Shown: piece by piece, positions 19,731 through 59,034 of the stretch
Layout: every line of letters begins with the position of its first letter
How positions within the stretch are numbered: position 1 is the first letter of the stretch
NCBI RefSeq assembly: GCF_000497125.1
Contig: NC_090599.1
Location: forward strand, 868,001 to 932,000
Direction of reading: 5' to 3'
Source: Spironucleus salmonicida
Lineage: Eukaryota
Length of the DNA: 64,000 bases
Notes under the pieces: model-generated
What the model was told of the DNA's origin: nothing
Database searches by the model: none
Seen by the model: only the letters and a program-made list of their open reading frames with translations
Made by a program: the position numbers and the translations under genes

Positions 19731-19786
19731 TGCGGAGTGGGGCGGGCGAAATATCGCTGCGGGCGGCCCGAGTGCGGTTTCTGCTT

Positions 19787-20587: not shown

Positions 20588-20610
20588 CCGGTCTACGCGG
20601 CCCGCTCCTC

Positions 20611-37270: not shown

Positions 37271-38149
37271 ATGTTACGGGTTCTCGCGCACACCGTGTTC
37301 GCCGCCGCCGCCCTGCCCTCCGAGGCCCTGCTGCTGCTCGCCGCGCCGGACGACCCGATGCTGGAGCTGCTGGACGGCGTCTGCGCGCAGGTGGACGTGC
37401 CCTGCGGCGCGGTGGACTGCGGTCTGGAGGCGGCCTTCTGCGGGGGCATCCCCGGAGCCGGTGCGTCCCAGTACGTGATTCTGCAGAGCGGCCACTTCCA
37501 GCCCGTCCCCCGCGAGAAGGCGGCCGCGAAGTACGCCGCGATGTGGTTCCAGGACATGTTCTGCACGGACCTCTGCCACGAGCTCCGCGCGCAGCTGCGC
37601 CTCCACACGGTCTTCTCGGTCCGCGGCCCCGCCTCGGTGCGCGCCGACTTCCAGGCCCAGCTCAACCGCTTCAAGCTCGCCGCCGTGTTCGTCTTCGCCG
37701 AGGACGCCGCCTTCGCGCTCTCCGCCAACCTGGACGGCCGGGACTTCGCCTACGAGGGGCCCTGCGACATGGGCCACGTCGCGCGCTTCCTGGCCTCCCG
37801 GACCAACTCGGCCCTGCCCCGCGCCGACGGGAGGGGGCTCTCCGCGCTGCTGGCCGGGGGCGAGGCCACCGTGCTGCTGCTGCCCGACTTCGGTGCGCAC
37901 GCCGCCGCGCTGGACGCCGTGTACGCCCGGGGCTACGAGCGCGTGCTCTACGCGGACTGCTCGCGCGTGCCCGACTACTGCAACCGCTTCAACGCGCTCC
38001 AGGGCGGGGCGGCCGTGCTCATCCGCGGCGCGGCCCAGCAGTACGCGGTGCTGCGCGGCGAGGTGGGGGCCGTGCTCGCGCAGCTGGCCTCCGGGCAGTT
38101 CGCCCTGCTGAGCGAGGCGGAGCTGGTGCAGCAGCTGTCCAGCGAGTGA
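37271..38149 (+). CDS. Putative redox-inactive PDI-like protein (gene C, copy 3)
   Basis: Differs from copies 1 and 2 by GQFAL versus GEFAM. Confidence 0.6.
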   Translation: MLRVLAHTVFAAAALPSEALLLLAAPDDPMLELLDGVCAQVDVPCGAVDCGLEAAFCGGIPGAGASQYVILQSGHFQPVPREKAAAKYAAMWFQDMFCTDLCHELRAQLRLHTVFSVRGPASVRADFQAQLNRFKLAAVFVFAEDAAFALSANLDGRDFAYEGPCDMGHVARFLASRTNSALPRADGRGLSALLAGGEATVLLLPDFGAHAAALDAVYARGYERVLYADCSRVPDYCNRFNALQGGAAVLIRGAAQQYAVLRGEVGAVLAQLASGQFALLSEAELVQQLSSE

Positions 38150-39010: not shown

Positions 39011-40447
<1,437 letters not shown>

Positions 40448-40577
40448 TAGTTTCTTCTTTATTCTATACGCTCCCCTCTACTCACCGCTCTACTCGGGCC
40501 GCAGAAAAAACGGGGAGCGGTAAGCAGAAACCGCACTCGGGCCGCCCGCAGCGATATTTCGCCCGCCCCACTCCGCA

Positions 40578-41159
40578 ATGAACTTCGACTAGCCCTCCAA
40601 GATCTCCTTCGCGGACCTCTCCTTCGGCCTCGACCTCGACCTCGGCCAGGAGTACTCGGCGCCCCTGCTGTTCACGCCCGCGGACTTCGAGACCGGCACG
40701 CTGAGCGCCACGCCCTCGGCCCGCGCGGACGTTTCCTCCAGCTTCGCGGCCTCCGAGGCGTCCGACAGCCCCCGCCGCACCCGCCGCGCGCAGAGCGAGT
40801 GGGCGCCCGAGGAGGACAGCCTGCTGCGGCGGCTCGCGGCGTGCCCGGAGCGCGGCACCTGGCCGCACATCGCGCGGGCGATCCACCGGCAGGTCCCGGG
40901 CGCGCCGGTGCGGTCCCCCGCGCAGTGCAGCCAGCGCTGGGCCCGCGTGGCGAACCCCGCGATCCGCAAGGGCAAGTGGAGCCCCGCGGAGGACGCCCAG
41001 CTCGTGGCGGCGGTCGCCGGGTCCCCGCCGCGCAGGTGGCGGCTGATCGCGGACAAGGTGCAGGGCCGCACGGACATCCAGGTGCGGTACCGCCTGCAGA
41101 CCATCGGCGAGGGGCTGGTGCGCCAGCGGCTGATCGGGCGCGAGTGCCTGCCCGAGTGA
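40578..41159 (+). CDS. Two-repeat Myb transcription factor, copy 4 of 5
   Basis: Intact in code 6: codon 5 is TAG (Gln) where copies 1-3 have TAT. Confidence 0.9.
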
Positions 41160-41411
41160 GCCTTGTTGGATTTTATTTATATACCTATTCCATTAGGGAG
41201 GCAGGGACGCCCGAAGCGGCAGCGTGCACCTGGTCTGGAGTGCTTGGGCCCGGATAGCGACATTGTATTCGCCCCAGGCCTAGCAATTGGGATGATGGGC
41301 GGCTAGGCCTGTACTTTTCAAGTTCACCACCAGCGTGGTGGGAGTCATGCTAAAGGTTGCCGCATCAACGCATGTGCTTCCAGAGGCACTAATATTAGGA
41401 ATAGATAAATT

Positions 41412-41485
41412 TGATTCTACCGAGACTTGAACTCGGGACCGCTTGTACGTCAAACAAACGTGCTAACCAACTACACCATAGAATC
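41412..41485 (-). tRNA. tRNA-Val (anticodon GAC)
   Basis: Reverse complement of 43961..44034. Confidence 0.9.
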
Positions 41486-41543
41486 TGTAATCTAAGTACC
41501 TAATATAATGTGGGGCACGATATAATATTTTAGGTCGCTTCGA

Positions 41544-42233
41544 ATGGAAGTTTTACAAACAAGTAATCTGAGCCTAGTGCACCGCTAAGAACTGGACGAG
41601 TAGTCTCGGTTGCATTAAACCGAGGTCTAAAACATTCGCCGCGAATACGAGTCTAAACTGTGGGCAATGTAAAGGGCCCACGAGGATCAGAAGGACGTAA
41701 TTATTCAGCAAGTTAAAGCTCAAGTATAGTCGGAGGTAGTGAAGGTGCAAAGCGTCAATTCGGCATCAATTTCGCTTTTATAGCAGACGAATGCATCGCA
41801 GCTGTCCCAAGTTCGGGATGAGTACCAAAAGATAGTTAACTAGCAGGTAGATTTCATTCGCATCTTAAAATAAGAAGTAGTGGGTCTGCAGCAATCGAAA
41901 GTCAATGAAACGCCACTGCGAAACCAAATTGAGCATCTTACTGCTTCTCTTAGATAGGCCAATAGCTAGCTTTAAATCTCATCGAAACGCACATTAGATA
42001 TGGAAGCATAAATTCATCATCTCAGCGAGCTATCTCAATTGAGCTTAAAGTAGTAGAATGAGCTTACACTATAAGCATAAGCCATAAAAATACTAACGTA
42101 GGAGCGAGACGTTCTTTACGCGCGACTAGAAATAATGAACTAAGATATTGCAATCAGAGGGTAAGGTGCAGCTATGAGAGGGTAAAGTGGAGTGTAACGC
42201 ATAGAGTCATAATTAGGGCCTTAGCTACAATGA
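41544..42233 (+). CDS. Gln-rich coiled-coil protein, 229 aa, copy 1
   Basis: MEVLQTSNLSLVHRQELDEQSRLHQTEVQNIRREYESKLW...; uninterrupted in code 6. Confidence 0.75.
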
Positions 42234-42249
42234 GTGAAATATAAAAGTT

Positions 42250-43155
42250 TCATATTTATAGTTTTTCTTCTATTTTTGATAGTCTCAACTGGACTTCTTG
42301 TTAAAAATTATCTAATACATTCTTAATACTACTAACATTTTGAAAATTAACTATTTGTTATAAGTCTTTCATTTTAAGTTTTAAAAATTTAACTTCTTCT
42401 TTCATTTCTTCAAACTCTTATTAATCTAATGGTTTAGGATATTAAAGGGCCTAAATTTGATATAGTTTCCTTGTATTGGTATTCTAGAAAGAAGTATTAA
42501 TAAGATCAGTTTACAATAAATCCGCATTAAGGTTTAATGAATTATCTTCTAAATTATTTTCTAAAATAATGCTAGTATTTAAACTTAACCCAGATTACAA
42601 TCTTATTGGAGTTAAACTTCGTTAAATACTTCTTTTTCTAGCACTTTATCTAGATGTATTATTATAGAATAACTCCATATTATAAAGGCTTTTTTTTAAT
42701 AGCTCGATAATTTACTGTGCATTTTCAATTTTAAATTCAAGCATTTCTAACTATTTCAGATTGTCAGAAGATGGAGATAAATTTGTGATGTATTTAAATT
42801 GGCCAATTAATAAGCGAAGTGATGTTCTTGTTATATCTAATAACTTGTTGACATGTTTAAACTTAGAGTCTATTTCTTAGCTGGCATAAACAATATGAGT
42901 TAGATCAGAGTTTGACAATTCATTGACCATATCAAAACATGTACAAGATTAGCGTTGACATTTCAATAAAATTGCAGATACTTTAGAAAAATTATCAATA
43001 TCTGGATTTTTAATAGAGAATTACCTATTTTCCTTTATTAAAGTGTTAATTGAACATATTAGCTATTAGGTTTATTCAGAAAAGTAGTAAAACTCATGAT
43101 AGATTTCCGCATATTCATTTATTTTACTAATAGATTCTTTAACAGATGTGTTCAT
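42250..43155 (-). CDS. Hypothetical protein with C-terminal coiled coil, 301 aa; sole gene in the IR-D loop
   Basis: MNTSVKESISKINEYAEIYHEF...EEMKEEVKFLKLKMKDLQQ...EEKLQI*; 302 codons without an internal TGA. Confidence 0.75.
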
Positions 43156-43212
43156 TTGAAGCGGAAAGATAAACTTGGTTCATAATGATATATATTATAT
43201 TTAATATTTCAC

Positions 43213-43902
43213 TCATTGTAGCTAAGGCCCTAATTATGACTCTATGCGTTACACTCCACTTTACCCTCTCATAGCTGCACCTTACCCTCTGATTGCAATA
43301 TCTTAGTTCATTATTTCTAGTCGCGCGTAAAGAACGTCTCGCTCCTACGTTAGTATTTTTATGGCTTATGCTTATAGTGTAAGCTCATTCTACTACTTTA
43401 AGCTCAATTGAGATAGCTCGCTGAGATGATGAATTTATGCTTCCATATCTAATGTGCGTTTCGATGAGATTTAAAGCTAGCTATTGGCCTATCTAAGAGA
43501 AGCAGTAAGATGCTCAATTTGGTTTCGCAGTGGCGTTTCATTGACTTTCGATTGCTGCAGACCCACTACTTCTTATTTTAAGATGCGAATGAAATCTACC
43601 TGCTAGTTAACTATCTTTTGGTACTCATCCCGAACTTGGGACAGCTGCGATGCATTCGTCTGCTATAAAAGCGAAATTGATGCCGAATTGACGCTTTGCA
43701 CCTTCACTACCTCCGACTATACTTGAGCTTTAACTTGCTGAATAATTACGTCCTTCTGATCCTCGTGGGCCCTTTACATTGCCCACAGTTTAGACTCGTA
43801 TTCGCGGCGAATGTTTTAGACCTCGGTTTAATGCAACCGAGACTACTCGTCCAGTTCTTAGCGGTGCACTAGGCTCAGATTACTTGTTTGTAAAACTTCC
43901 AT
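43213..43902 (-). CDS. Gln-rich coiled-coil protein, copy 2
   Basis: Inverted copy of 41544..42233. Confidence 0.75.
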
Positions 43903-43960
43903 TCGAAGCGACCTAAAATATTATATCGTGCCCCACATTATATTAGGTACTTAGATTACA

Positions 43961-44034
43961 GATTCTATGGTGTAGTTGGTTAGCACGTTTGTTTGACGTA
44001 CAAGCGGTCCCGAGTTCAAGTCTCGGTAGAATCA
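43961..44034 (+). tRNA. tRNA-Val (anticodon GAC)
   Basis: Cloverleaf: acceptor GATTCTA/TAGAATC+A; D arm GTGT-AGTTGGTTA-GCAC; anticodon arm TTTGT-TTGACGT-ACAAG; T arm CCGAG-TTCAAGT-CTCGG. Confidence 0.92.
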
Positions 44035-44286
44035 AATTTATCTATTCCTAATATTAGTGCCTCTGGAAGCACATGCGTTGATGCGGCAACCTTTAGCATG
44101 ACTCCCACCACGCTGGTGGTGAACTTGAAAAGTACAGGCCTAGCCGCCCATCATCCCAATTGCTAGGCCTGGGGCGAATACAATGTCGCTATCCGGGCCC
44201 AAGCACTCCAGACCAGGTGCACGCTGCCGCTTCGGGCGTCCCTGCCTCCCTAATGGAATAGGTATATAAATAAAATCCAACAAGGC

Positions 44287-44868
44287 TCACTCGGGCAGGC
44301 ACTCGCGCCCGATCAGCCGCTGGCGCACCAGCCCCTCGCCGATGGTCTGCAGGCGGTACCGCACCTGGATGTCCGTGCGGCCCTGCACCTTGTCCGCGAT
44401 CAGCCGCCACCTGCGCGGCGGGGACCCGGCGACCGCCGCCACGAGCTGGGCGTCCTCCGCGGGGCTCCACTTGCCCTTGCGGATCGCGGGGTTCGCCACG
44501 CGGGCCCAGCGCTGGTTGCACTGCGCGGGGGACCGCACCGGCGCGCCCGGGACCTGCCGGTGGATCGCCCGCGCGATGTGCGGCCAGGTGCCGCGCTCCG
44601 GGCACGCCGCGAGCCGCCGCAGCAGGCTGTCCTCCTCGGGCGCCCACTCGCTCTGCGCGCGGCGGGTGCGGCGGGGGCTGTCGGACGCCTCGGAGGCCGC
44701 GAAGCTGGAGGAAACGTCCGCGCGGGCCGAGGGCGTGGCGCTCAGCGTGCCGGTCTCGAAGTCCGCGGGCGTGAACAGCAGGGGCGCCGAGTACTCCTGG
44801 CCGAGGTCGAGGTCGAGGCCGAAGGAGAGGTCCGCGAAGGAGATCTTGGAGGGCTAGTCGAAGTTCAT
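44287..44868 (-). CDS. Two-repeat Myb transcription factor, copy 5 of 5
   Basis: As copy 4 (TAG at codon 5) but QCNQ instead of QCSQ. Confidence 0.9.
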
Positions 44869-45812
44869 TGCGGAGTGGGGCGGGCGAAATATCGCTGCGG
44901 GCGGCCCGAGTGCGGTTTCTGCTTACCGCTCCCCGTTTTTTCTGCGGCCCGAGTAGAGCGGTGAGTAGAGGGGAGCGTATAGAATAAAGAGTGGATAGGC
45001 AGTTGATATGATAGTAACACTGCTAAAAATAGAAATGCGGATATTCATAGATGCATGCAGGAATGTATTATTACTAAATATAATATTTAATGCAACGTTA
45101 AAAATATCGTAGCATATTACTAGTTGCATTTTCTAATAAATACCAAGCACCAATATATTTATACAGAATATAATCAACATTGCGTATTCCTCAGTTAACT
45201 GAACGAACCTAGCGTATATGGTTGGCATGTATCTATTGGCTGTGCGACTCTGCAAACCAACTAATGATTGCCAGCTATTTGGTAGGATTCTGTCTAGCAG
45301 CTATGGATTTTGACGGAAAACCTGAGCCAGCACCCTCGCTGGCATGACTCCTCACCCAGCTCCCGGCCGCCAGCTCCATAACCGCAAGAGCGCTTTGCGG
45401 GACCGGGCATACGAACAGGGTGTAACCGGGTGCCAGCATAGCAAGCAGCCGCATACTCCGAAGCCACCCAGCGCAATCCCCTAGCCTGGCCAAAGCACGG
45501 AAGCACGTAACTATGGGGCCAGCTGCACACCAGCATGGGGAAATAGAGTTGCCGTTGGTGGAATTTTGCTACCTCCGGCGCGGCCAGAGAAGGTAATTCT
45601 TCCCTCCGACTCGCATGCCGGCCAAAGGCACCGCGGCGGGACCCTCGGCTTGGCGCAGCGGCATAGGGAACGGAACTTGGACGGGAAACCTCAAGATAAT
45701 CACCAGCCAGCTGGCATCGGGCACTTTGCATGCGGGTCTGCCTGGTTTGCGTGGCAACCATCCAGCGCTCCGCTCTAGCCCGCCGCCGGGTCTACACCCT
45801 ACGCTCCATAAT

Positions 45813-48083
45813 ATGCATGCGGCGCTGTCTGTGCTGGTGCTCTATGCCGTCTTCACCTCCCTCATCGCAGGGCTGAAGTGCTTCATGCTAGGGCCAGCCG
45901 AGAACCAGCAGATCTCGCAGCGGGCGCTTTTCCTGCTCGCGGTGCTCGTGAACGTGCTGGACGCGTGCCTGCTGGCGTCCGTGCTCGCCGCGCTCCAGTT
46001 GCTTGGCGCCAAGGCGAAGGTCGCCAGAGCCGTCCCGACGTGCGTGGTGCTCTACCTCGCGGTGCTCTTCATGGTGGTCTGCATCTACGACACCGAGCTG
46101 GGGCGCGAGATGCAGGGCATCGCCAGCTTCTCGCTGTTCAAGAGCTACATCCTCGGCGTGCCGACCCTGTTCCCCAGCACGCTGCTAGTCGCGGGCGAGA
46201 AGACCTCCTCCAACACGCTCGCCACGCTTCTGCTGGCCATCGGAAGGGACATCATCCACTGGGTGCTGCTGTCGTCGATCGTCATCGGCTCGGCCGGGCT
46301 GGCGCTCCTGCTGGTGCTGATCGGACGGAAGCACATAGTATCCTCGTTTCTGGTCCGGCCAGCTGCCCCGCACAACTTTGTGCTGCAGGCCGTCAGCGCC
46401 GGGCTCGGGAGCGAGATGGACATGCAGACCGCCAAGATATCCTCGGCAACGCGGAGAGTCCGACGGGCGGCCGGCCCTGTTGGGGCCCTGCTCTCCCTCG
46501 TCGCGGTCGCACTATTCGCCTCCTTCATCGCCTTCCCCTACGGGCAGCTGGCCGAGGCGGCGCCAGGGCACTGGAACATGCTCAAGTCGCTGACGCGCTA
46601 CCACCTGCCGGAGGCGAGGCTGCAGGCGTTGATCCGGGACGAGCGCCAGAGCGTTGAGCTGCCGCCGGGCCTGTTCTACATCGACAACCGCGACAGCGTC
46701 CAGTTCCCGTTCGTGGTGGGGGACGAGGCGAGCTACTGCCAGTTCAACCAGTGCGAGGCCCCGGCGCCCCAAGGCAGGGAGCAGCCAGGAGAGATGCCGA
46801 ACGTCTACATGGTCATCATCGAGTCCCTGTCGGCAGTCCCCCTGCTGGTCGCGAACAACACCTTCTCCGAAACGCTGATGCCCACGCTGCACGGCCTCCA
46901 GCAGAGCGGGACGACAGAGCTCACGCTCTCCACGCTGTCGCTGCCCACGATCAACGGCTGGTACGCACTTATGACCGGCGAGCTCCCCCTGCAGTACGGC
47001 GCGGCAATGACGCAGCTGCGGCACCACGCGCACGACTCGCTGGCGGGCATGTTCAGGCGGATGGCCTACTCCACCCACTACACGTCCCCGTCGCCCCCGG
47101 AGTTCGACGGCAAGCAGAACATTCTGTACAGCCACTTCGACACGGCGCAGTACTACTTCCCCCGGAAGGGGTACCTGCCCGACCTGCCGCCGCCCAACTC
47201 GTGGGTGTGCGACCGCATCACCACCCGCCAGTTCATCGACCAGATGTCGGTTGCGGCGCGGCCGGCCTTCGGGGTCGTGATGACGGTGGACACGCACACC
47301 CCATTCACGGGCTACGACCAGCCGAAGTTCTACGACAACGCCATCGAGAATGACTACCAGCGCGTCGCGAACTACGCGGACCGGCAGCTGGGCGACCTCG
47401 TGGCCCACCTGCGCCTAAACGACCCCCACTCCCTGCTGGTGGTGGTGGGCGACCATGGGCCCCGGGAGCGGCCCGTGATCTCGGAGTTCCCCCAGTGGGA
47501 CGGCGACTGCGCGCGGCGGGTGTTCAGCGACGCGTACTTCACCACCACCGGCGTCGTGGCCTACCTGGGGCAGGACGAGCGGCTCATGGCGGAGTTCAAC
47601 CAGGGGAGGACGCACACGCGGGCCATCGACACGAACGCCTTCGTGCACGACATCGTGTGGCGGCTGAGCCGGTTCGGCGGGAAGCGGTACATCTCCAACC
47701 GGGTCCCGCAGAGCGTCTCCTTCACGCCGCGCATCATCGAGGTCAGACAGGAGCAGCAGATATTCAGGGGCTACCTCCGCGACCAAACCTCCTTCGTGGA
47801 CTTCAACGAGACCATCACCTGCTAGTTCGCCAGCGCACCGAGGCCTGCGCTGAGCTACCGGGGAAAGATCCAGCTGCACAATGCCGTCTCCGCCAAGAAC
47901 CGCCAGTGGCACGCCGACTTCGACTGCGCCGCCGAGCGGTGCGCTTTCCCCGTCGCGGAGGCAAACTTCGAGAACGAATCGGGCGTGTTTTGGATTGGCT
48001 TCGTGCTGGCCCCCGTCGTGGTGGGCCTGCTTGCGTTCTGTGTGAGCCTGGTCGTGCAAAGGCGCCTCAAGGCGGGCAAATGA
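45813..48083 (+). CDS. LtaS/OpgB(MdoB)-like membrane phosphotransferase (alkaline phosphatase/sulfatase superfamily), 756 aa, copy 1
   Basis: About 5 N-terminal TMs; PNVYMVIIESLS, LPTINGWYALMTG, MTVDTHTPF, YADRQLG, VVVGDHG; read-through of TAG47823 adds a C-terminal TM. Confidence 0.82.
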
Positions 48084-50072
48084 TCCAGGCGCTGCGAGGC
48101 GCTAGAGTAGCGGTGTCCCCACTTACCAGCAGCGCTGCCGTATAGTTAGTGGAGGACGTGGTTAGTCTTTGTAAACAACCATTACCGGATCTAAGCTGGG
48201 CGCAAACAAGCACGGCCGCGTCTTTTATTGCTAGGAGGTGGCGAAATTGGGTTAGCCAACTTACCATTCGGAACTGAGGCGCGCAGGCAAACGCTATTGC
48301 CGCAGCAGGCGAGAGACTGAGCGTTTTAGATTCTATACTTTACAGTTGCATTCGCAGCCGGGGGTTCCAGACCATATGGATGCACTCCACGGTTGGGACA
48401 TGGAGTAGTACCGCCTCGCGTAATTACCAGCCGTGCACACTTGAAATGTGGGAATTATTTGCCTGAGAACACGAACTTACTGTCAAGTCCTAGCCTGCAT
48501 GCGGACCCAAACAATGTTGCAAGGCCAGGTTGAGACTGCGCAGTCTACGAATTGAGCACACTGCCGTACGCTTGCGGGCGCAGTAGCAATATTCTCCGAC
48601 CGGGCCTTAGGTGAACAATGTTGCGGGACTTCGCACATAGGAGGCTAGAGATATCCAGCTCGTATCGAGGACCATAGATATCTAATTGGCAGGGACGTTA
48701 AGATTTGCCACGCGTTTGGGTCTAAAGGAAGCAACTAGCTAACAGGGATACTGTCACACTCTGTAAAGCCCCGGAGCAGCGGCGGGGTAGGAGCTCACGA
48801 AACTCTAGGCTCTTGCAAAATATCAGTTCCGCTGTAATAGCAACTCCGTAAAGATCTGGCCGGGTGCCGCAGATGATGGTTAGTATTTGTCTGCAATGAG
48901 GCACTGGGAAAAACTTGGGTAGGCTCTATAGGCGCGAGCAGAGCGTACAACAATTCGTCAGCTCTCAGTAGCTAAGTGCGGCCGGTTGTAATTATGGGCA
49001 ATCTGCTCTAATGCCCTCTGTAGGCAGACCGCTGTTTCAGTTGAACCGCTTTGCCAGGTATTGCTATCTCACATGGCGCATCTTGTTCTACAGGTTTTCG
49101 CGGGAAAGCATTTTTTAGTAGTTCAGGCACCGCACGTACGCTTCCCTGCCGGGCGAGGGAACAGAAGGGAATGAGATGCGTAAATCTAGCTGCAAGCCCG
49201 CAGAAAGATTGCAGAAAGTAAAATTAGCAAAGATGGGACAGGCAATACCGAGGTAAGGTCCCACATAATTTGCAATTATTATAGTGCTAATGAATACTCG
49301 AGTCATATTCCAACCAGTACTCTAAAATATCAAGTAGGATACTTTGAGCTACACTACTTGTTGAATAGTCATTCAAAGTATTTATCCGAATGCCAGAATT
49401 AATCTAACAACGGCAGGAAATAAGGTCTAAAAATGAGCCAATACGAACGTAGATCCCAAAGGCTAGCGGGCAGGATTGGCCATGCAATAGAATTTATTTG
49501 TCAGCAACTAATATCTGCAAATCTGCATGGTGCTCTACTTTCCAGCAGCAACCTGCTAGTTGCATGGCGGTGTTTTGTGTTAGACAATGTAGTTACAAAG
49601 CTGGCCGCATTCGTGCACATATTTAAATTGCAATAGCCTTCCCAGAGTTAACCGTAAGTGCTTTGTGGTATCTGTGGAACTAGCGTTATACCTTGCTGAT
49701 ACACCACAAAAAGCATTTAAAGCAGATCTGAGGCAATATACTTGCAGCAGGCCAGTATACACTCATTTGATAGAGTTGGTACAGGGCTGAAAATGTGAGA
49801 GCTGCATCGTATTTATAGCTGCGCTAGTTTACTATTTCATAGATAAGGACGGATAGCTAGTGCAGAATGATAGCTAATTTGCTAGCCAATATGCAGTTAG
49901 TAAAAGATATAGAACCATTAAGAACTGGAGAAGCTAAAGTCAAACAGGGCAGAACATCTTTCATTGGGAATTTGGCCCAGACTTACATAGTGGACACATT
50001 ATCTGTTAAAAGTGACAGTGGATTATAGTTTTGTATTTAGTATATTTGTCTCACAACCACTCCAATTTGATA

Positions 50073-50462
50073 ATGGAAAAGCTTCAAAATGATTAGATAA
50101 TTAAAGTTATGTAACAGCATTATTCTTTCTTACAGACAGCATATTTATAGACTAAAAATTTGGCGTAAGAGTCGAATATTTCATCCCAATATATCAACTT
50201 GTTAGTTGACTTTCTTTTAACATCTGCGAACGAGAATTTACTAAATCGCTCTTTCTGCGATTTTCTGAAGGAGTTCACACTACTAACCCAAAATCAAAAT
50301 TAATTCAGTCTACTACCGTAAAATGATCTTAAGCTGAGTGAAATCAACTAGAAAATGAATACGTAAGCAGACAGTTGTATAAAGGAAAACATAAATCTCA
50401 AAAAGACCATATTCCTACTTATTGGTATCATTTTTATGCTCTTATGCCTTCTGATTTTCTGA
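50073..50462 (+). CDS. Putative tail-anchored membrane protein, 129 aa, copy 1
   Basis: MEKLQNDQIIKVMQQHYSFLQ...NLKKTIFLLIGIIFMLLCLLIF*. Confidence 0.6.
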
Positions 50463-51269
50463 GTTTTATATTTTTGTCAGTTAGTTTGGAGTAGGTTTCC
50501 TCATTTTCAAAACTGCTTTATACTTATTTATTTTATCTATACCTCGCTAATTATTGATTTAAAAAGTCAAATGAGCTCTTTCAGTATTAATCAAATAAAC
50601 TACACAAAAACCTTTTAAAATGAGGTAAGATACTTTGTACTAGTTTATTTTAACAGAATTGTAGAGTTTAATGTGCAATAATTCTGTAATTTTCTATTTC
50701 TTAGGTTAATACGTATTATGCTTCTCAAAAAGCATGATAAGTTTTGGTGAAATTATTAAATATCTTATAAGCTTTCAGTTTGGTATCATTAAAAATAAAT
50801 AGGATAAGTAAAATACTAATGTTAACCTATAGTAGAAAGCAGCACTTAACATAAAACTTAGGTTAATAATTATTATTTTCTCCAACAATTTACTATATAG
50901 TTAGTTTAATACTTATATACCGTAACAAATATCAGCTAGATCGACTTAGTACATCTTCAAAGAAGGTTCTTCTAGATTACTAAGATTTAGCACCTATTCA
51001 CATAGGGTGACTTTTTTACAGTTTAATTATACATCTCACTTCACCTCGACTGCTCTTTTTACGAGAAATACATTCATTTAAACAAGGCAAATTATATTTT
51101 TTATATTCAGGCCTTAATTAAGTATGATAATTAATCATAATGGTTGAATATAATAAACAAATTATTTTGTATACTTTTTGAGTAATAAAATAAAATGTAT
51201 AATATTTTTCGTTTTAATGGTCGCATATATATATATACTAAAATTTACATTAATTATTTGTGTTTAAAA

Positions 51270-52448
51270 ATGCTGAAAAATATTGATTCTACATAGCTTA
51301 AGCTTTAAGAGTTATTTAATAATTCTACTATAAACGCACGTAATGGATCATATTCTTCTAAGATTGATTTACCCAGAGCAGAATTTAATAATTAAAATCT
51401 TCTCAGTTTTGCTAAAGCTGATTTTGAAACTCCCACTCCATAACCTATTTAGTCTTTATTGATAGATCATATTTAAAAGTATAGCTCAGGTTATAGTTAT
51501 CATCCGGATTCCCTTTATGCCGCTATAATAAATTGGTAATAAAAATATTTTGGTGTCAATCTCAAAAAGCAAGATATTGCATTTATCCCAGGAGTTATGC
51601 CAGGAATTTGTTTAGCATTAAAAGCTATTATGAACCCAGGAGATAAAGTTACGTTATTCACTCCAGAATATCCAGCTTTTTTTACATTAATGGAAGCAAA
51701 TAGATATATATGGGATAGTGTAAGTATTTAGGACGATACTATTAATTTTGAAGCATTAGACTTATAGCTTAAAAATTCAAAAGTACTTTTATTGTCGAAC
51801 CCACATAATCCTACTGGAAAAGTACTTAGCAGGTCTGAGATATAGAAAATTGTTTAGCTTTGTAATAAGTATGATATTTACTTAATTATCGATGAAATAT
51901 GGTAGGATATAACGTTTGATGTGTAGCATTAATCAATTTTAAAGTATCGTTCAGAGAAAACAGTTTCTTTTTCTTCTGGATCGAAATCATTTAACACTGC
52001 AGGATTTTAGTTAGCATTTGCATTAATTGAAGATTAATCACTCCGGAGAGCATTTTAAGCTGAACAAGATAAGTCATTTCTTAATTCATCTAATATAGCT
52101 GGAATATTAGCATTACAAACTGGTTATGAACAATGTGATTAATATCTATTTGCTTGGAAAAAATATATTGCTGAGAATATGGATTATTGTTCAAAATATC
52201 TTCGAGATAATGTCCCATAGGTTTTGACTTATGTGCCTGATGCAACATGTCTGCTCATGTTAGATTTTAGTTAGGTATTTAAAAATTGTGAAGAGGCTGA
52301 ACAAGCTTTAGCCAAATAGAATATTTATCTATAAAAAGGCTCAGATTTTAAATTTAATGGTGTTTTTATGCGTCTGAATTGTGGTACTAGTCGTTAAGAG
52401 CTTAATTTGTGCATGTAAGCAGTGAAAAGAGCAGTCGAGGTGAAGTGA
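51270..52448 (+). CDS. PLP-dependent class I/II aminotransferase-fold enzyme, MalY/PatB (cystathionine/C-S beta-lyase) type, 392 aa
   Basis: AKADFETP, IPGVMPGI, PGDKVTLFTPEYPAF, LSNPHNPTGKV, IIDEIWQDI, SGSKSFNTAG (PLP Lys), FMRLNCG. Confidence 0.88.
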
Positions 52449-53021
52449 GATGTATAATTAAACTGTAAAAAAGTCACCCTATGTGAATAGGTGCTAAATC
52501 TTAGTAATCTAGAAGAACCTTCTTTGAAGATGTACTAAGTCGATCTAGCTGATATTTGTTACGGTATATAAGTATTAAACTAACTATATAGTAAATTGTT
52601 GGAGAAAATAATAATTATTAACCTAAGTTTTATGTTAAGTGCTGCTTTCTACTATAGGTTAACATTAGTATTTTACTTATCCTATTTATTTTTAATGATA
52701 CCAAACTGAAAGCTTATAAGATATTTAATAATTTCACCAAAACTTATCATGCTTTTTGAGAAGCATAATACGTATTAACCTAAGAAATAGAAAATTACAG
52801 AATTATTGCACATTAAACTCTACAATTCTGTTAAAATAAACTAGTACAAAGTATCTTACCTCATTTTAAAAGGTTTTTGTGTAGTTTATTTGATTAATAC
52901 TGAAAGAGCTCATTTGACTTTTTAAATCAATAATTAGCGAGGTATAGATAAAATAAATAAGTATAAAGCAGTTTTGAAAATGAGGAAACCTACTCCAAAC
53001 TAACTGACAAAAATATAAAAC

Positions 53022-53411
53022 TCAGAAAATCAGAAGGCATAAGAGCATAAAAATGATACCAATAAGTAGGAATATGGTCTTTTTGAGATTTATGTTTTCC
53101 TTTATACAACTGTCTGCTTACGTATTCATTTTCTAGTTGATTTCACTCAGCTTAAGATCATTTTACGGTAGTAGACTGAATTAATTTTGATTTTGGGTTA
53201 GTAGTGTGAACTCCTTCAGAAAATCGCAGAAAGAGCGATTTAGTAAATTCTCGTTCGCAGATGTTAAAAGAAAGTCAACTAACAAGTTGATATATTGGGA
53301 TGAAATATTCGACTCTTACGCCAAATTTTTAGTCTATAAATATGCTGTCTGTAAGAAAGAATAATGCTGTTACATAACTTTAATTATCTAATCATTTTGA
53401 AGCTTTTCCAT
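53022..53411 (-). CDS. Putative tail-anchored membrane protein, copy 2
   Basis: Inverted copy of 50073..50462. Confidence 0.6.
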
Positions 53412-55400
53412 TATCAAATTGGAGTGGTTGTGAGACAAATATACTAAATACAAAACTATAATCCACTGTCACTTTTAACAGATAATGTGTCCACTATGTA
53501 AGTCTGGGCCAAATTCCCAATGAAAGATGTTCTGCCCTGTTTGACTTTAGCTTCTCCAGTTCTTAATGGTTCTATATCTTTTACTAACTGCATATTGGCT
53601 AGCAAATTAGCTATCATTCTGCACTAGCTATCCGTCCTTATCTATGAAATAGTAAACTAGCGCAGCTATAAATACGATGCAGCTCTCACATTTTCATCCC
53701 TGTACCAACTCTATCAAATGAGTGTATACTGGCCTGCTGCAAGTATATTGCCTCAGATCTGCTTTAAATGCTTTTTGTGGTGTATCAGCAAGGTATAACG
53801 CTAGTTCCACAGATACCACAAAGCACTTACGGTTAACTCTGGGAAGGCTATTGCAATTTAAATATGTGCACGAATGCGGCCAGCTTTGTAACTACATTGT
53901 CTAACACAAAACACCGCCATGCAACTAGCAGGTTGCTGCTGGAAAGTAGAGCACCATGCAGATTTGCAGATATTAGTTGCTGACAAATAAATTCTATTGC
54001 ATGGCCAATCCTGCCCGCTAGCCTTTGGGATCTACGTTCGTATTGGCTCATTTTTAGACCTTATTTCCTGCCGTTGTTAGATTAATTCTGGCATTCGGAT
54101 AAATACTTTGAATGACTATTCAACAAGTAGTGTAGCTCAAAGTATCCTACTTGATATTTTAGAGTACTGGTTGGAATATGACTCGAGTATTCATTAGCAC
54201 TATAATAATTGCAAATTATGTGGGACCTTACCTCGGTATTGCCTGTCCCATCTTTGCTAATTTTACTTTCTGCAATCTTTCTGCGGGCTTGCAGCTAGAT
54301 TTACGCATCTCATTCCCTTCTGTTCCCTCGCCCGGCAGGGAAGCGTACGTGCGGTGCCTGAACTACTAAAAAATGCTTTCCCGCGAAAACCTGTAGAACA
54401 AGATGCGCCATGTGAGATAGCAATACCTGGCAAAGCGGTTCAACTGAAACAGCGGTCTGCCTACAGAGGGTATTAGAGCCGATTGCCCATAATTACAACC
54501 GGCCGCACTTAGCTACTGAGAGCTGACGAATTGTTGTACGCTCTGCTCGCGCCTATAGAGCCTACCCAAGTTTTTCCCAGTGCCTCATTGCAGACAAATA
54601 CTAACCATCATCTGCGGCACCCGGCCAGATCTTTACGGAGTTGCTATTACAGCGGAACGGATATTTTGCAAGAGCCTAGAGTTTCGTGAGCTCCTACCCC
54701 GCCGCTGCTCCGGGGCTTTACAGAGTGTGCCAGTATCCCTGTTAGCTAGTTGCTTCCTTTAGACCCAAGCGCGTGGCAAATCTTAACGTCCCTGCCAATT
54801 AGATATCTATGGTCCTCGATACGAGCTGGATATCTCTAGCCTCCTATGTGCGAAGTCCCGCAACATTGTTCACCTAAGGCCCGGTCGGAGAATATTGCTA
54901 CTGCGCCCGCAAGCGTACGGCAGTGTGCTCAATTCGTAGACTGCGCAGTCTCAACCTGGCCTTGCAACATTGTTTGGGTCCGCATGCAGGCTAGGACTTG
55001 ACAGTAAGTTCGTGTTCTCAGGCAAATAATTCCCACATTTCAAGTGTGCACGGCTGGTAAGTACGCGAGGCGGTACTACTCCATGTCCCAACCGTGGAGT
55101 GCATCCATATGGTCTGGAACCCCCGGCTGCGAATGCAACTGTAAAGTATAGAATCTAAAACGCTCAGTCTCTCGCCTGCTGCGGCAATAGCGTTTGCCTG
55201 CGCGCCTCAGTTCCGAATGGTAAGTTGGCGAACCCAATATCGCCACCTCCTAGCAATAAAAGACGCGGCCGTGCTTGTTTGCGCCCAGCTTAGATCCGGT
55301 AATGGTTGTTTACAAAGACTAACCACGTCCTCCACTAACTATACGGCAGCGCTGCTGGTAAGTGGGGACACCGCTACTCTAGCGCCTCGCAGCGCCTGGA

Positions 55401-57671
55401 TCATTTGCCCGCCTTGAGGCGCCTTTGCACGACCAGGCTCACACAGAACGCAAGCAGGCCCACCACGACGGGGGCCAGCACGAAGCCAATCCAAAACACG
55501 CCCGATTCGTTCTCGAAGTTTGCCTCCGCGACGGGGAAAGCGCACCGCTCGGCGGCGCAGTCGAAGTCGGCGTGCCACTGGCGGTTCTTGGCGGAGACGG
55601 CATTGTGCAGCTGGATCTTTCCCCGGTAGCTCAGCGCAGGCCTCGGTGCGCTGGCGAACTAGCAGGTGATGGTCTCGTTGAAGTCCACGAAGGAGGTTTG
55701 GTCGCGGAGGTAGCCCCTGAATATCTGCTGCTCCTGTCTGACCTCGATGATGCGCGGCGTGAAGGAGACGCTCTGCGGGACCCGGTTGGAGATGTACCGC
55801 TTCCCGCCGAACCGGCTCAGCCGCCACACGATGTCGTGCACGAAGGCGTTCGTGTCGATGGCCCGCGTGTGCGTCCTCCCCTGGTTGAACTCCGCCATGA
55901 GCCGCTCGTCCTGCCCCAGGTAGGCCACGACGCCGGTGGTGGTGAAGTACGCGTCGCTGAACACCCGCCGCGCGCAGTCGCCGTCCCACTGGGGGAACTC
56001 CGAGATCACGGGCCGCTCCCGGGGCCCATGGTCGCCCACCACCACCAGCAGGGAGTGGGGGTCGTTTAGGCGCAGGTGGGCCACGAGGTCGCCCAGCTGC
56101 CGGTCCGCGTAGTTCGCGACGCGCTGGTAGTCATTCTCGATGGCGTTGTCGTAGAACTTCGGCTGGTCGTAGCCCGTGAATGGGGTGTGCGTGTCCACCG
56201 TCATCACGACCCCGAAGGCCGGCCGCGCCGCAACCGACATCTGGTCGATGAACTGGCGGGTGGTGATGCGGTCGCACACCCACGAGTTGGGCGGCGGCAG
56301 GTCGGGCAGGTACCCCTTCCGGGGGAAGTAGTACTGCGCCGTGTCGAAGTGGCTGTACAGAATGTTCTGCTTGCCGTCGAACTCCGGGGGCGACGGGGAC
56401 GTGTAGTGGGTGGAGTAGGCCATCCGCCTGAACATGCCCGCCAGCGAGTCGTGCGCGTGGTGCCGCAGCTGCGTCATTGCCGCGCCGTACTGCAGGGGGA
56501 GCTCGCCGGTCATAAGTGCGTACCAGCCGTTGATCGTGGGCAGCGACAGCGTGGAGAGCGTGAGCTCTGTCGTCCCGCTCTGCTGGAGGCCGTGCAGCGT
56601 GGGCATCAGCGTTTCGGAGAAGGTGTTGTTCGCGACCAGCAGGGGGACTGCCGACAGGGACTCGATGATGACCATGTAGACGTTCGGCATCTCTCCTGGC
56701 TGCTCCCTGCCTTGGGGCGCCGGGGCCTCGCACTGGTTGAACTGGCAGTAGCTCGCCTCGTCCCCCACCACGAACGGGAACTGGACGCTGTCGCGGTTGT
56801 CGATGTAGAACAGGCCCGGCGGCAGCTCAACGCTCTGGCGCTCGTCCCGGATCAACGCCTGCAGCCTCGCCTCCGGCAGGTGGTAGCGCGTCAGCGACTT
56901 GAGCATGTTCCAGTGCCCTGGCACCGCCTCGGCCAGCTGCCCGTAGGGGAAGGCGATGAAGGAGGCGAATAGTGCGACCGCGACGAGGGAGAGCAGGGCC
57001 CCAACAGGGCCGGCCGCCCGTCGGACTCTCCGCGTTGCCGAGGATATCTTGGCGGTCTGCATGTCCATCTCGCTCCCGAGCCCGGCGCTGACGGCCTGCA
57101 GCACAAAGTTGTGCGGGGCAGCTGGCCGGACCAGAAACGAGGATACTATGTGCTTCCGTCCGATCAGCACCAGCAGGAGCGCCAGCCCGGCCGAGCCGAT
57201 GACGATCGACGACAGCAGCACCCAGTGGATGATGTCCCTTCCGATGGCCAGCAGAAGCGTGGCGAGCGTGTTGGAGGAGGTCTTCTCGCCCGCGACTAGC
57301 AGCGTGCTGGGGAACAGGGTCGGCACGCCGAGGATGTAGCTCTTGAACAGCGAGAAGCTGGCGATGCCCTGCATCTCGCGCCCCAGCTCGGTGTCGTAGA
57401 TGCAGACCACCATGAAGAGCACCGCGAGGTAGAGCACCACGCACGTCGGGACGGCTCTGGCGACCTTCGCCTTGGCGCCAAGCAACTGGAGCGCGGCGAG
57501 CACGGACGCCAGCAGGCACGCGTCCAGCACGTTCACGAGCACCGCGAGCAGGAAAAGCGCCCGCTGCGAGATCTGCTGGTTCTCGGCTGGCCCTAGCATG
57601 AAGCACTTCAGCCCTGCGATGAGGGAGGTGAAGACGGCATAGAGCACCAGCACAGACAGCGCCGCATGCAT
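55401..57671 (-). CDS. LtaS/OpgB-like membrane phosphotransferase, copy 2
   Basis: Inverted copy of 45813..48083; one amino-acid difference seen (AEAAP versus AEAVP). Confidence 0.82.
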
Positions 57672-59034
57672 ATTATGGAGCGTAGGGTGTAGACCCGGCG
57701 GCGGGCTAGAGCGGAGCGCTGGATGGTTGCCACGCAAACCAGGCAGACCCGCATGCAAAGTGCCCGATGCCAGCTGGCTGGTGATTATCTTGAGGTTTCC
57801 CGTCCAAGTTCCGTTCCCTATGCCGCTGCGCCAAGCCGAGGGTCCCGCCGCGGTGCCTTTGGCCGGCATGCGAGTCGGAGGGAAGAATTACCTTCTCTGG
57901 CCGCGCCGGAGGTAGCAAAATTCCACCAACGGCAACTCTATTTCCCCATGCTGGTGTGCAGCTGGCCCCATAGTTACGTGTTTCCGTGCTTTGGCCAGGC
58001 TAGGGGATTGCGCTGGGTGGCTTCGGAGTATGCGGCTGCTTGCTATGCTGGCACCCGGTTATACCCTGTTCGTATGCCCGGTCCCGCAAAGCGCTCGTGC
58101 GGTTATGGAGCTGGCAGCCGGGAGCTGGGTGAGGAGTCATGCCAGCGAGGGTGCTGGCTCAGGCTTTCCGTCAAAAAATGGCGCACACTTATTTATTGCC
58201 TCTCCTAAAAAATTATCCATATTAACTAATACCACCATGACAACTTCTAAACCTCATAATTTTTATAAAATAATATATTTGATACTAATCACTTAATATT
58301 TTTACTAGGTCCTACAAAATCTTTGTGTAAAGGAAGTACGTGTAGTATTAGAGGAAGCTTCGGATCAGTTCATGTATATTCAGTTCATCAGATGGATTTA
58401 GTTATTTCGATAGAAAATGCCTATTCTCTTTTCTAGCTGTTTTAAAGATATATATTAAATGAAAGTTATTGAATCAAATTGCAAATAAGATTGTAGTCTA
58501 GTTACAATCATCACTGTAATTCATAGAAAGATCAAACATTAGCTAGATAATCCATGTGATTTCTCACGCCAGTATCGTTATGAAAGCTTTTTCTTTTTAC
58601 TCTGCTAAATTACTTATGATGTGTAAGCATAGCAGTTGTAAGTTACCAAAGTGAATGATTTAATGGAGTTTCGACCATCCACGTGTTGCAAAGCACCGAG
58701 GCTGTCCTCGAACTTAATAAAACAGCAATATACCGGCCGTCTGGGCACGCCGACGGCGTAAATTGGCAAATTGAAAACTATTCATAACCGCACCCTGACC
58801 AATGCAGGGCAGCGAGGCGCGTCTATGGTGCGAAAGGACTAGTCTGGCGTAAGCCTGCAGCGTGCTCCCCGGGAGGCTACTGTACGCCCAGGACGCATCG
58901 GCTGCAGCAGTTGCCGAGTGCAAGCACAGTCCAGCGCCCCGTGGTGTCTACTACACATTTCTCCTAGAGCCGCAAATCCTCCCGGTCCGCTCGCGGCGAC
59001 ATCCCGCACCGTGTGCAATAAGTAACCAAACCGC

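What the first reader, a model, noticed from the sequence alone, without database searches (positions are those of the whole stretch)
45813..48083. Lipoteichoic-acid-synthase-like enzyme in a eukaryote, duplicated
Seen: about 5 N-terminal TMs followed by a domain with NVYMVIIES, PTINGWYALMTG, VDTHTPF, NYADRQLG and VVGDHG. Knowledge: bacterial LtaS/OpgB-type phosphoglycerol transferases have this topology, with a metal-binding ES, catalytic Thr, an HxPF motif and GDH. True sulfatases instead need CxPxR, which is absent here. Code-6 read-through reveals an extra C-terminal TM that typical LtaS lacks. Inference: a possibly laterally acquired enzyme transferring phospholipid head groups onto a surface glycan or protein, or building a teichoic-acid-like polymer on a protist.
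Basis: partly seen in the sequence, partly recalled or inferred. Interest (0 to 1): 0.72.

Follow-up and report, generated by a model that had tools for sequence, protein, structure and literature searches.

The report
LtaS-like membrane enzyme in Spironucleus
A fish-parasite gene labelled "sulfatase" is really built like the bacterial enzymes that move phosphate-linked head groups off membrane lipids, and it belongs to an unstudied protist family whose job is still unknown.

Summary
Window 45813-48083 (+) is an intact 756-codon gene of Spironucleus salmonicida, publicly annotated as a truncated 542-aa "Sulfatase". A second copy lies at 57671-55401 (-) and differs by one base. The two copies sit in the arms of a 5.7-kb inverted repeat.

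The protein has five N-terminal membrane helices, a sulfatase-fold domain and a C-terminal membrane helix that is reached only by reading one TAG as Gln. That downstream part is conserved in relatives, so the read-through is real.

By sequence profile and by fold the domain is closest to VP1736 (3lxq), LtaP and LtaS, then PbgA. It is further from true sulfatases, EptC and BcsG. The LtaS metal ligands and nucleophile (E, T, H, DH) are all present. No CxPxR motif is present. The residues aligned to LtaS's FWNR are FDGK, which argues against copying LtaS's glycerol-phosphate specificity.

The nearest relative is an AT-rich paralogue in the same genome, and both sit in a eukaryote-type clade that includes Giardia. 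So this is not a recent bacterial import, and there is no evidence for a teichoic-acid-like polymer.

Best reading: a Thr-nucleophile phospho-head-group transferase (or hydrolase) acting on the luminal or outer membrane face, with unknown substrate.

The parts
45813..48083 (+). Copy 1 of the LtaS-like gene: 756 codons plus TGA, read with TAG=Gln
   Evidence: GC3 0.89; PF00884. 100% identical to the annotated S. salmonicida 'Sulfatase' over residues 202-734.
55401..57671 (-). Copy 2 of the same gene. It differs at one base (mirror of 46561, A250V).
45813..46535 (+). N-terminal membrane domain, residues 1-241, with five hydrophobic helices
   Evidence: Kyte-Doolittle peaks and AF2 helices. Positive loops 58-72 and 171-222 fit an N-in topology (read from the sequence; inference).
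46620..47972 (+). Extracytoplasmic alkaline-phosphatase/sulfatase-fold domain plus a family-specific beta module, residues about 270-720
   Evidence: VIA-align model ranges 241-720 against 3lxq, LtaP and LtaS. Pfam PF00884 covers 329-551.
46821..46823 (+). Glu337, predicted metal ligand (aligned with LtaS Glu255)
   Evidence: E in 30 of the 31 eukaryote-type rows that have a letter there.
46947..46949 (+). Thr379, predicted catalytic nucleophile (aligned with LtaS Thr300)
47295..47297 (+). His495 (aligned with LtaS His416)
   Evidence: H in 39 of 39 eukaryote-type rows.
47451..47456 (+). Asp547-His548, predicted metal ligands (aligned with LtaS Asp475-His476)
   Evidence: D and H in 39 of 39 eukaryote-type rows.
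47823..47825 (+). In-frame TAG read as Gln671
   Evidence: The alignment continues across it into conserved motifs.
48000..48056 (+). C-terminal transmembrane helix, residues 730-748, followed by a basic tail QRRLKAGK
   Evidence: A C-terminal hydrophobic segment occurs in 34 of 39 eukaryote-type rows against 2 of 67 others.
45308..51062 (.). Left arm of the 5755-nt inverted repeat that carries copy 1
52422..58176 (.). Right arm of the inverted repeat that carries copy 2
45163..45742 (.). Upstream module shared with other GC-rich genes of the window. It ends 71 nt before the ATG.
   Evidence: Repeat families D3, I8, I12, I14 and I16

Best explanation
The gene encodes a polytopic membrane enzyme of the LtaS/OpgB/PbgA branch of the alkaline-phosphatase superfamily. 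It belongs to a eukaryote-type (at least metamonad) clade. Shown here: five N-terminal helices, then a metal-site domain with Glu337, Thr379, His495 and Asp547-His548, then a family-specific beta module and a C-terminal anchor helix. Inferred: the topology is N-in, with the catalytic domain on the luminal or outer face and the basic tail in the cytosol. Inferred by analogy with LtaS, OpgB and EptA: the membrane domain presents a phospholipid. The metal-activated Thr379 attacks its phosphodiester and releases the lipid backbone. This leaves a phospho-alcohol bound to Thr379, which is then passed to a hydroxyl of a glycan, glycolipid or glycoprotein acceptor, or to water. The head group is unknown. 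The positions aligned to LtaS's FWNR stretch are FDGK here, so glycerol-phosphate cannot be assumed. The gene is an old paralogue of an AT-rich S. salmonicida gene. It now lies in a GC-rich, recently duplicated repeat region next to surface-protein (CRMP) and Myb genes.
For: Identity and organism: 100% match to S. salmonicida 'Sulfatase'. Domain: PF00884 at E=3.7e-17. Model: AF2 with 106 aligned rows gave pLDDT 86.4 and pTM 0.88. Fold ranking by VIA-align: 3lxq Z 31.0, LtaP 28.8, LtaS 27.8-26.7, YejM/PbgA about 26, best true sulfatase 23.1, EptC 21.6, BcsG 21.0. Foldseek gives the same order at the top. A profile of the 13 eukaryote-type rows hits 3lxq at 1.8e-16 and LtaP at 7e-10, while sulfatases match only the C-terminal GDHG part. 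The catalytic residues align with LtaS E255, T300, H416, D475 and H476. They are invariant or nearly so in the family. No CxPxR motif. Whole-length likeness: the Atlas model of paralogue P0003 aligns over residues 1-727 to bacterial LTA-synthase-family models at TM 0.61-0.64. Family and origin: P0001 groups with P0003 and P0004 (SH-aLRT 95) inside a 34-row clade (99). P0003 is a named S. salmonicida protein. P0011 shares 110 of 110 words with the Giardia gene of earlier notes.
Against: No activity, substrate, location or product is known for any member. The N-terminal membrane domain has no detectable sequence homology to bacterial LtaS-like proteins: hhalign aligns only columns 314-666. Its likeness therefore rests on topology and predicted models. 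The stretch aligned to LtaS's FWNR is not conserved. I could not superpose residues, because no model coordinates were available to scripts. Another copy seen in public runs and in the 2014 annotation is frameshifted near codon 34 and has lost the stop codon. It also differs at 8 non-synonymous against 4 synonymous sites, so the GC-rich copies may be under relaxed constraint.
Confidence: 0.6

Rival explanations
1. It is only a hydrolase: a Thr-nucleophile phospholipase-C-like or phosphodiesterase enzyme that cleaves lipid or glycan phosphodiesters on the outer or luminal face, for example for scavenging or remodelling, with water as the only acceptor.
For: The same catalytic set serves hydrolases of this superfamily. 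The top structural match, 3lxq, is uncharacterised. Nothing in the window points to an acceptor pathway.
Against: The polytopic membrane domain plus ectodomain layout is the layout of the transferases LtaS, OpgB and EptA and of PbgA. Soluble hydrolases of the fold rank lower.
Confidence: 0.2
2. One reading: a recently acquired bacterial LtaS that builds a polyglycerol-phosphate (teichoic-acid-like) polymer on the protist surface.
For: The fold and catalytic residues are LtaS-like. The gene is 65% GC in a genome reported as 33% GC.
Against: The nearest relative is an AT-rich paralogue in the same genome, and the gene sits in a eukaryote-type clade. The neighbouring native gene families (CRMP, Myb) are equally GC-rich, and duplicated regions of this genome are reported as GC-enriched (PMC9509377, passages). 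The gene uses TAG as a sense codon. FWxR occurs in 0 of 39 eukaryote-type rows. The NCBIfam LtaS model gives no hit and OpgB scores 12.1 bits against a cut-off of 572.
Confidence: 0.05
3. It is a true formylglycine sulfatase, as annotated.
For: The Pfam family name, and the fold shared with S1 sulfatases at Z up to 23.1.
Against: No [CS]xPxR motif. The nucleophile position holds Thr. Sulfatases rank below the LtaS group in both structure searches, and by sequence profile they match only the GDHG region.
Confidence: 0.02
4. The window copies are non-functional or non-catalytic: decaying duplicates in a repeat region, or a PbgA-like lipid-binding regulator.
For: PbgA/YejM is among the top matches. 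A frameshifted, stop-less variant copy exists, with 8 non-synonymous to 4 synonymous differences. The region is repeat-rich.
Against: Both window copies are intact over 756 codons. They keep every family-invariant residue despite only 35% identity to the paralogue. GC3 of 0.89 shows a maintained coding frame.
Confidence: 0.1
5. It is a GPI ethanolamine-phosphate transferase (PIG-N/O/G type).
For: The 'PT..G...L.TG' nucleophile motif resembles that of the PF01663 family (my recall). Several relatives pass the PF01663 threshold weakly.
Against: P0001 scores 12.8 bits on PF01663, below the cut-off of 23, against 63 bits on PF00884. Its layout is five helices before the domain and one after, whereas PIG-N-type proteins have many helices after the domain (recalled, not tested).
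Confidence: 0.03

Closest known systems
LtaS / LtaP (lipoteichoic acid synthase and primase of Firmicutes; PDB 2w5q, 4uor, 4uop, 2w8d)
   Same: Five N-terminal membrane helices followed by an extracytoplasmic sulfatase-fold domain. Z is 26.7-28.8 over about 355-363 residues. Glu, Thr, His and Asp-His align with E255, T300, H416 and D475/H476.
   Different: About 12-15% identity. The stretch aligned to LtaS FWNR is FDGK. There is an extra beta module and a C-terminal membrane helix. The membrane domain is not alignable by sequence. It is a eukaryotic gene that uses TAG=Gln.
VP1736 of Vibrio parahaemolyticus (PDB 3lxq), an uncharacterised alkaline-phosphatase-superfamily domain
   Same: Best match by profile (1.8e-16), by Foldseek (2.3e-16) and by VIA-align (Z 31.0, 374 residues, rmsd 3.2). 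It shares the FDN-type motif where LtaS has FWN.
   Different: Its function is unknown, so the match gives no chemistry. The nucleophile position aligns to Ser in 3lxq.
PbgA/YejM/LapC (PDB 6xlp, 6v8q)
   Same: It is the only solved full-length protein among the listed matches whose alignment range runs from the membrane domain into the ectodomain (model 1-695). Z is 25.4-26.6.
   Different: The global rmsd is 12.6-12.9 over the full length, so the domain arrangement or the membrane domain differs. PbgA is mainly a lipid/LPS-binding regulator (recalled).
OpgB/MdoB phosphoglycerol transferase I
   Same: It is the only NCBIfam enzyme family touched by the eukaryote-type proteins: P0003 at 1.1e-6 and P0001 at 0.055. 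It is a lipid-head-group-to-glycan transferase.
   Different: The scores are 12-28 bits against an equivalog cut-off of 572.
Giardia 'Sulfatase' gene (earlier findings e1-638453, e1-638469, e1-638590; P0011 here)
   Same: Same eukaryote-type family, with all signature residues and the C-terminal helix.
   Different: It is 1009 aa with inserts. It is not the closest branch to the Spironucleus genes in my tree.

Membership tests
LtaS family (LTA synthase / primase) | Extracytoplasmic sulfatase-fold domain most similar to eLtaS | tested here: met
   VIA-align Z 26.7-28.8 for LtaS and LtaP against at most 23.1 for sulfatases. The Foldseek ranking agrees.
LtaS family (LTA synthase / primase) | Metal ligands and nucleophile (S. 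aureus E255, T300, D475, H476) plus H416 | tested here: met
   The profile alignment to 2w5q places E337, T379, H495, D547 and H548 on them. They are conserved in the family. Residue-level superposition was not possible.
LtaS family (LTA synthase / primase) | Five-helix N-terminal membrane domain (Pfam LtaS_N, PF27449) | tested here: inconclusive
   Five hydrophobic helices are present. The paralogue's Atlas model aligns over 1-727 to LtaS_N-bearing clusters at TM about 0.63. But there is no Pfam hit and hhalign does not align this region. The Pfam copy may lack PF27449, since the bacterial LtaS-like rows did not hit it either.
LtaS family (LTA synthase / primase) | Glycerol-phosphate pocket (the FWNR stretch with W354 and R356; residue roles recalled from the LtaS structure paper, not read here) | tested here: not met
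   It aligns to FDGK in P0001. FWxR occurs in 0 of 39 eukaryote-type rows against 8 of 67 bacterial-type rows.
LtaS family (LTA synthase / primase) | NCBIfam equivalog NF053595 score | tested here: not met
   No hit for P0001 at E<=1.
LtaS family (LTA synthase / primase) | Makes a polyglycerol-phosphate chain from phosphatidylglycerol | not testable with these tools
   Needs biochemistry.
OpgB/MdoB phosphoglycerol transferase | NCBIfam equivalogs NF009027 / NF003000 | tested here: not met
   12.1 bits against a cut-off of 572. No hit to NF003000.
Type I (formylglycine) sulfatases | C/S-x-P-x-R motif at the nucleophile position | tested here: not met
   No [CS]xPxR in 756 residues. Thr stands at the aligned position.
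EptA/MCR-type phosphoethanolamine transferases | EptA_B_N membrane domain (PF08019) and a closest fold match to EptA/EptC | tested here: inconclusive
   No PF08019 hit. EptC ectodomain Z is 21.6, below the LtaS group.
GPI ethanolamine-phosphate transferases (PIG-N/O/G) | PF01663 catalytic domain above threshold, plus the C-terminal multi-helix PigN domain | tested here: not met
   PF01663 scores 12.8 bits against a cut-off of 23. No PigN-domain hit. Only one helix follows the domain.
Eukaryote-type LtaS-like family (unnamed; Spironucleus, Giardia and others) | Signature P378-T379, D467-R468, D502, C566 and D573 plus a C-terminal membrane helix | tested here: met
   All are present in P0001. 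The signature is on 39 of 106 aligned rows. 34 of those 39 have the C-terminal hydrophobic segment.

The most novel reading that the evidence does not exclude
Metamonad protists, and perhaps other microbial eukaryotes, have an undescribed pathway in which an LtaS-like enzyme takes phospho-alcohol head groups from membrane phospholipids and decorates surface or secretory glycoconjugates. In S. salmonicida a GC-rich paralogue has been drawn into the recombining repeat regions that also carry the cysteine-rich surface-protein genes, so the modification could be part of surface-coat variation in this fish parasite.
Probability: 0.15. Interest if true: 0.75.

Novelty: new variant of a known kind. 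Interest (0 to 1): 0.5.

Why it matters
No eukaryotic LtaS-type enzyme has been described in the text I could search. There were 0 papers for 'lipoteichoic acid synthase' + 'protist' and 0 for 'Spironucleus salmonicida' + 'sulfatase'. The one paper for 'LtaS-like' + 'eukaryot' is a Listeria study, and the 6 papers listed for 'LtaS' + 'Trichomonas' look unrelated by their titles.

If the family transfers lipid head groups onto surface molecules, it would point to an unknown cell-surface chemistry in diplomonads and their relatives. Such an extracytoplasmic enzyme, if animals turn out to lack it (not tested here), would be a reasonable drug or diagnostic target in Giardia and Spironucleus.

The finding also corrects the public annotation. 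The gene was split into a 184-aa and a 542-aa model and named sulfatase.

Five earlier notes of this scan reached the same reading for the Giardia homologue, so the idea is not new within the scan.

Tried and rejected
- **Whole genome:** none is held for this window.
- **Single-sequence searches:** phmmer of P0001 against PDB sequences found nothing at E<=1. A single-sequence AF2 model was unusable, with pLDDT 37.5.
- **Word-indexed homologue searches:** three searches returned almost only the query's own records. They were useful only for names.
- **Atlas:** I queried paralogue P0003 instead. A second Atlas query with P0021 gave only bacterial neighbours and no taxon for that clade.
- **Sequencing runs:** no RNA holder is listed. 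The four runs laid are of guessed type, so I do not count them as evidence of expression. Bins 50608-51241 had no cover.
- **Membrane-domain homology:** hhalign of the eukaryote-type profile against a bacterial LtaS-like profile aligned only the catalytic domain, so this homology is not shown by sequence.
- **Single origin:** the 40 eukaryote-type rows are one side of a branch in the best tree, but with support 0. A single origin is neither shown nor rejected.
- **2014 genome paper supplements:** 'sulfatase' and 'EST47934' were not found in the text read from 11 of the 15 files, and 'sulfatase' was not found in file 14. File 7 (a scan) and files 13 and 15 were not searched.
- **A six-term literature search:** it was badly framed. 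None of its 15 listed papers holds 'lipoteichoic acid synthase'.
- **Earlier findings:** look-ups by place and with P0003, P0021 and P0006 gave nothing.
- **Readings rejected:** an assembly chimera or contaminant as the cause of the GC-rich islands, and a ciliate origin.
Full report
**What is there.** The window is nuclear DNA of the diplomonad Spironucleus salmonicida. The ORF product is 100% identical over residues 202-734 to the database protein 'Sulfatase', Spironucleus salmonicida, EST47934.1/V6M3Q6. Read with TAA/TAG=Gln, the frame from ATG 45813 to TGA 48083 gives 756 residues with a single in-frame TAG at codon 671. Third-position GC is 0.89, against about 0.5-0.6 for the other long frames over the same DNA, so this is the coding frame.

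Hydropathy gives five N-terminal helices and one C-terminal helix at 730-748. The loops rich in Lys/Arg (58-72, 171-222) and the tail QRRLKAGK fit an N-in topology, with the catalytic domain outside the cytosol. That topology is my inference from the sequence.

**Duplication and setting.** A second copy lies at 57671-55401 on the minus strand and differs at 1 of 2271 bases (A250V). The copies sit in the arms of an inverted repeat (45308-51062 and 52422-58176; 16 mismatches in 5755). The arms flank a 1359-nt spacer that holds most of an AT-rich aminotransferase gene.

The whole window is a mosaic of 22-30% GC stretches and 60-77% GC islands. The AT-rich stretches hold ordinary genes: seryl-tRNA synthetase, TIP49, aminotransferase, DUF4464 and a papain-type protease. 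The GC-rich islands hold five copies of a Myb-domain gene, cysteine-rich membrane proteins and several ORFs with no family.

The 2014 genome paper reports 107 Myb proteins and large CRMP families (PMC3916229, passages). The 2022 assembly paper reports that duplicated regions average 44.7% GC against 30.7% elsewhere (PMC9509377, passages). High GC is therefore a property of this genome's repeat regions and is not a sign of foreign DNA.

**Annotation history.** The public 542-aa model starts at Met202 and ends in a shifted frame. A separate 184-aa database protein (P0049) carries the first 34 residues and then runs in another frame.

Contigs of two of four public runs (type guessed, one study) show that same form: 56 nt at 45912-45967 are replaced by 19 nt. 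The other two runs read straight through. So a frameshifted copy or allele exists beside the intact ones.

In three of the four runs a single contig of about 3.5 kb covers 45713-49232 or further. That span includes the whole ORF, the TAG and the C-terminal helix. In the fourth run the cover is in pieces and leaves about 46591-46750 uncovered.

In all four runs the stop codon reads TCA. The contigs differ from the window at 12 further ORF positions, of which 8 are non-synonymous and 4 synonymous. None of these touches a catalytic residue.

**What it is.**
- Pfam gives PF00884 at E=3.7e-17 and only a sub-threshold PF01663 match.
- A full HMMER scan of 1.84 billion representatives found 196 proteins at E<=1e-3 and 11 at E<=1e-30.
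- I aligned 105 of the 150 listed hits with the query. I left out fragments under about 300 aa, P0002 (the same gene) and a hand-picked set of long or partial bacterial-type rows.
- Of these 106 rows, 39 carry a distinctive signature (Cys566 and Asp502, with Pro378-Thr379 and Asp467-Arg468). Of those 39, 34 also have a C-terminal hydrophobic segment. The five without one are four fragments and P0014.
- Of the other 67 rows, which are 552-896 aa with a bacterial LtaS/OpgB-like layout, only two have such a segment, and both nest inside the signature clade.
- The motifs after the TAG (N-R-x-W-H-x-D-F, C-x-F-P and the helix) are conserved across the 13-row alignment. So the read-through is real and the C-terminal anchor is a family trait.

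**Fold.** With the 106-row alignment AF2 gave pLDDT 86.4 and pTM 0.88.
- Foldseek against the PDB ranks 3lxq (VP1736) first, then full-length PbgA, LtaS and LtaP.
- VIA-align gives Z 31.0 (3lxq), 28.8 (LtaP), 27.8-26.7 (LtaS) and about 26 (YejM/PbgA). The best true sulfatase scores 23.1, EptC 21.6 and BcsG 21.0.
- A profile of the 13 eukaryote-type rows alone hits 3lxq at 1.8e-16 and LtaP at 7e-10. Sulfatases match only around GDHG.
- In the profile alignment to S. aureus LtaS, Glu337, Thr379, His495 and Asp547-His548 fall on E255, T300, H416 and D475-H476. I checked the numbering for E255 from the chain index.
- There is no CxPxR motif.

**Limits of the LtaS likeness.**
- The LtaS stretch FWNR aligns to FDGK (Asp432 nearly invariant). 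I recall, but did not read here, that this stretch holds the Trp and Arg that bind glycerol-phosphate. FWxR is found in 0 of 39 eukaryote-type rows and in 8 of 67 others. Many bacterial rows, and 3lxq itself, have FDN there.
- The NCBIfam LtaS model does not hit P0001. The OpgB model gives 12.1 bits against a cut-off of 572.
- hhalign between the eukaryote-type profile and a 25-row bacterial profile aligns only the catalytic domain (E=3.2e-39, columns 314-666), not the membrane domain.
- Likeness of the membrane domain rests on helix number, on the Atlas model of paralogue P0003 aligning over 1-727 to LTA-synthase-family models (TM 0.61-0.64), and on a loose full-length alignment to PbgA (rmsd 12.6).

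**Origin.** The best hit after the gene itself is P0003 (797 aa, 35% identity over the full length). It is named 'Sulfatase [Spironucleus salmonicida]', lies on a 1.07-Mb contig, and has an AT-rich amino-acid make-up.

In a maximum-likelihood tree of the catalytic domain (104 rows, 337 columns, quick search), P0001 groups with P0003 and P0004 (SH-aLRT 95) inside a 34-row clade (99). A second eukaryote-type clade of 6 rows (99) lies nearby. All 40 eukaryote-type rows are one side of a branch, but with support 0.

P0011 shares 110 of 110 words with the Giardia 'sulfatase' gene of five earlier notes of this scan. Those notes reached the same reading and list Hexamita and Tritrichomonas as further holders. 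They are unchecked AI notes. I tested only the family membership of P0011.

The Atlas lists a Parabasalia cluster (score 0.97) and an Oomycota cluster (0.94) as neighbours of P0003. These are leads only.

The gene is therefore an old paralogue within a protist family. A bacterial origin of the whole family is possible but remains untested.

**How it most likely works.**
- Shown: the architecture, the fold class, the conserved catalytic set, the absence of the sulfatase motif, the read-through and the duplication.
- Inferred by analogy with LtaS, OpgB and EptA: metal-activated Thr379 attacks the phosphodiester of a membrane lipid presented by the helices. A phospho-alcohol-Thr intermediate forms and is passed to an acceptor hydroxyl on the luminal or outer face, or to water.
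- Unknown: the head group, the acceptor and the location.

**Verdict.** I put 0.6 on a transferase-type mechanism, 0.2 on hydrolase only, 0.1 on non-functional or non-catalytic, 0.05 on an LTA-like polymer, and less on sulfatase or PIG-N.

This is a real, mis-annotated member of an unstudied eukaryote-type branch of LtaS-like enzymes. It is of moderate interest. It is not a recent lateral transfer, and there is no evidence for teichoic acid.

Noticed in passing
window 1-64000: The base composition is a sharp mosaic of 22-30% GC stretches with ordinary genes that use many TAA/TAG=Gln codons, and 60-77% GC islands whose ORFs reach GC3 0.86-0.94 (for example 21500-22240 on the minus strand). GC-biased gene conversion among repeats is a possible cause but was not tested.
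   Followed up: partly
19149-19991(-), 30857-31915(+), 35756-36814(-), 40269-41159(+), 44287-45345(-): There are five near-identical copies of a GC-rich Myb-domain gene. At three sites (20026-, 36632- and 45163-) the same 300-600-nt stretch beside the Myb gene leads into different downstream genes: the LtaS-like gene, or a 381-aa protein with no family. This looks like a shared promoter/leader module shuffled between cargo genes.
   Followed up: partly
29522-30688(-), 37004-38149(+), about 20344-21489(+): A GC-rich ORF of about 381 aa (GC3 0.87) with no Pfam family is present three times. Its 5' leader is identical to the region upstream of the LtaS-like gene up to position 45742.
   Followed up: no
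40456-42246 / 43200-44990 and 45308-51062 / 52422-58176: There are two large near-perfect inverted repeats. The spacer of each (953 and 1359 nt) holds most of one AT-rich gene: a coiled-coil-like ORF at 42250-43155 and the aminotransferase at 51195-52448. Further long inverted pairs occur at 16-38 kb.
   Followed up: no
45912-45967 and 48082: Public-run contigs and the 2014 annotation show another copy or allele of the gene. It has 56 nt replaced by 19 nt (a frameshift after codon 33). In all four runs the stop codon TGA reads TCA, which would extend the frame by about 78 codons.
   Followed up: partly
16159-18162(+), 32902-34704(-), 59035-62865(-): These are cysteine-rich membrane protein (CRMP-like) genes with CxxC/CxC repeats, a C-terminal helix and a basic tail. 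They are GC-rich like the LtaS-like gene.
   Followed up: no
50476 and 52462: Contigs of the coded runs end in loose A-runs 14 nt after the stop codons of ORF 50073-50462 and of the aminotransferase gene. They also leave 50608-51241 uncovered. This pattern would fit transcripts with very short 3' UTRs, but the runs' type is only guessed.
   Followed up: no
48084-49277: The contigs that cover the LtaS-like gene run on for about 1.2 kb past its stop, through DNA of intermediate GC (about 50%). The ORFs there (48067-48675 and 48795-50120, both on the minus strand) have no Pfam family. What this stretch encodes is unexplained.
   Followed up: no
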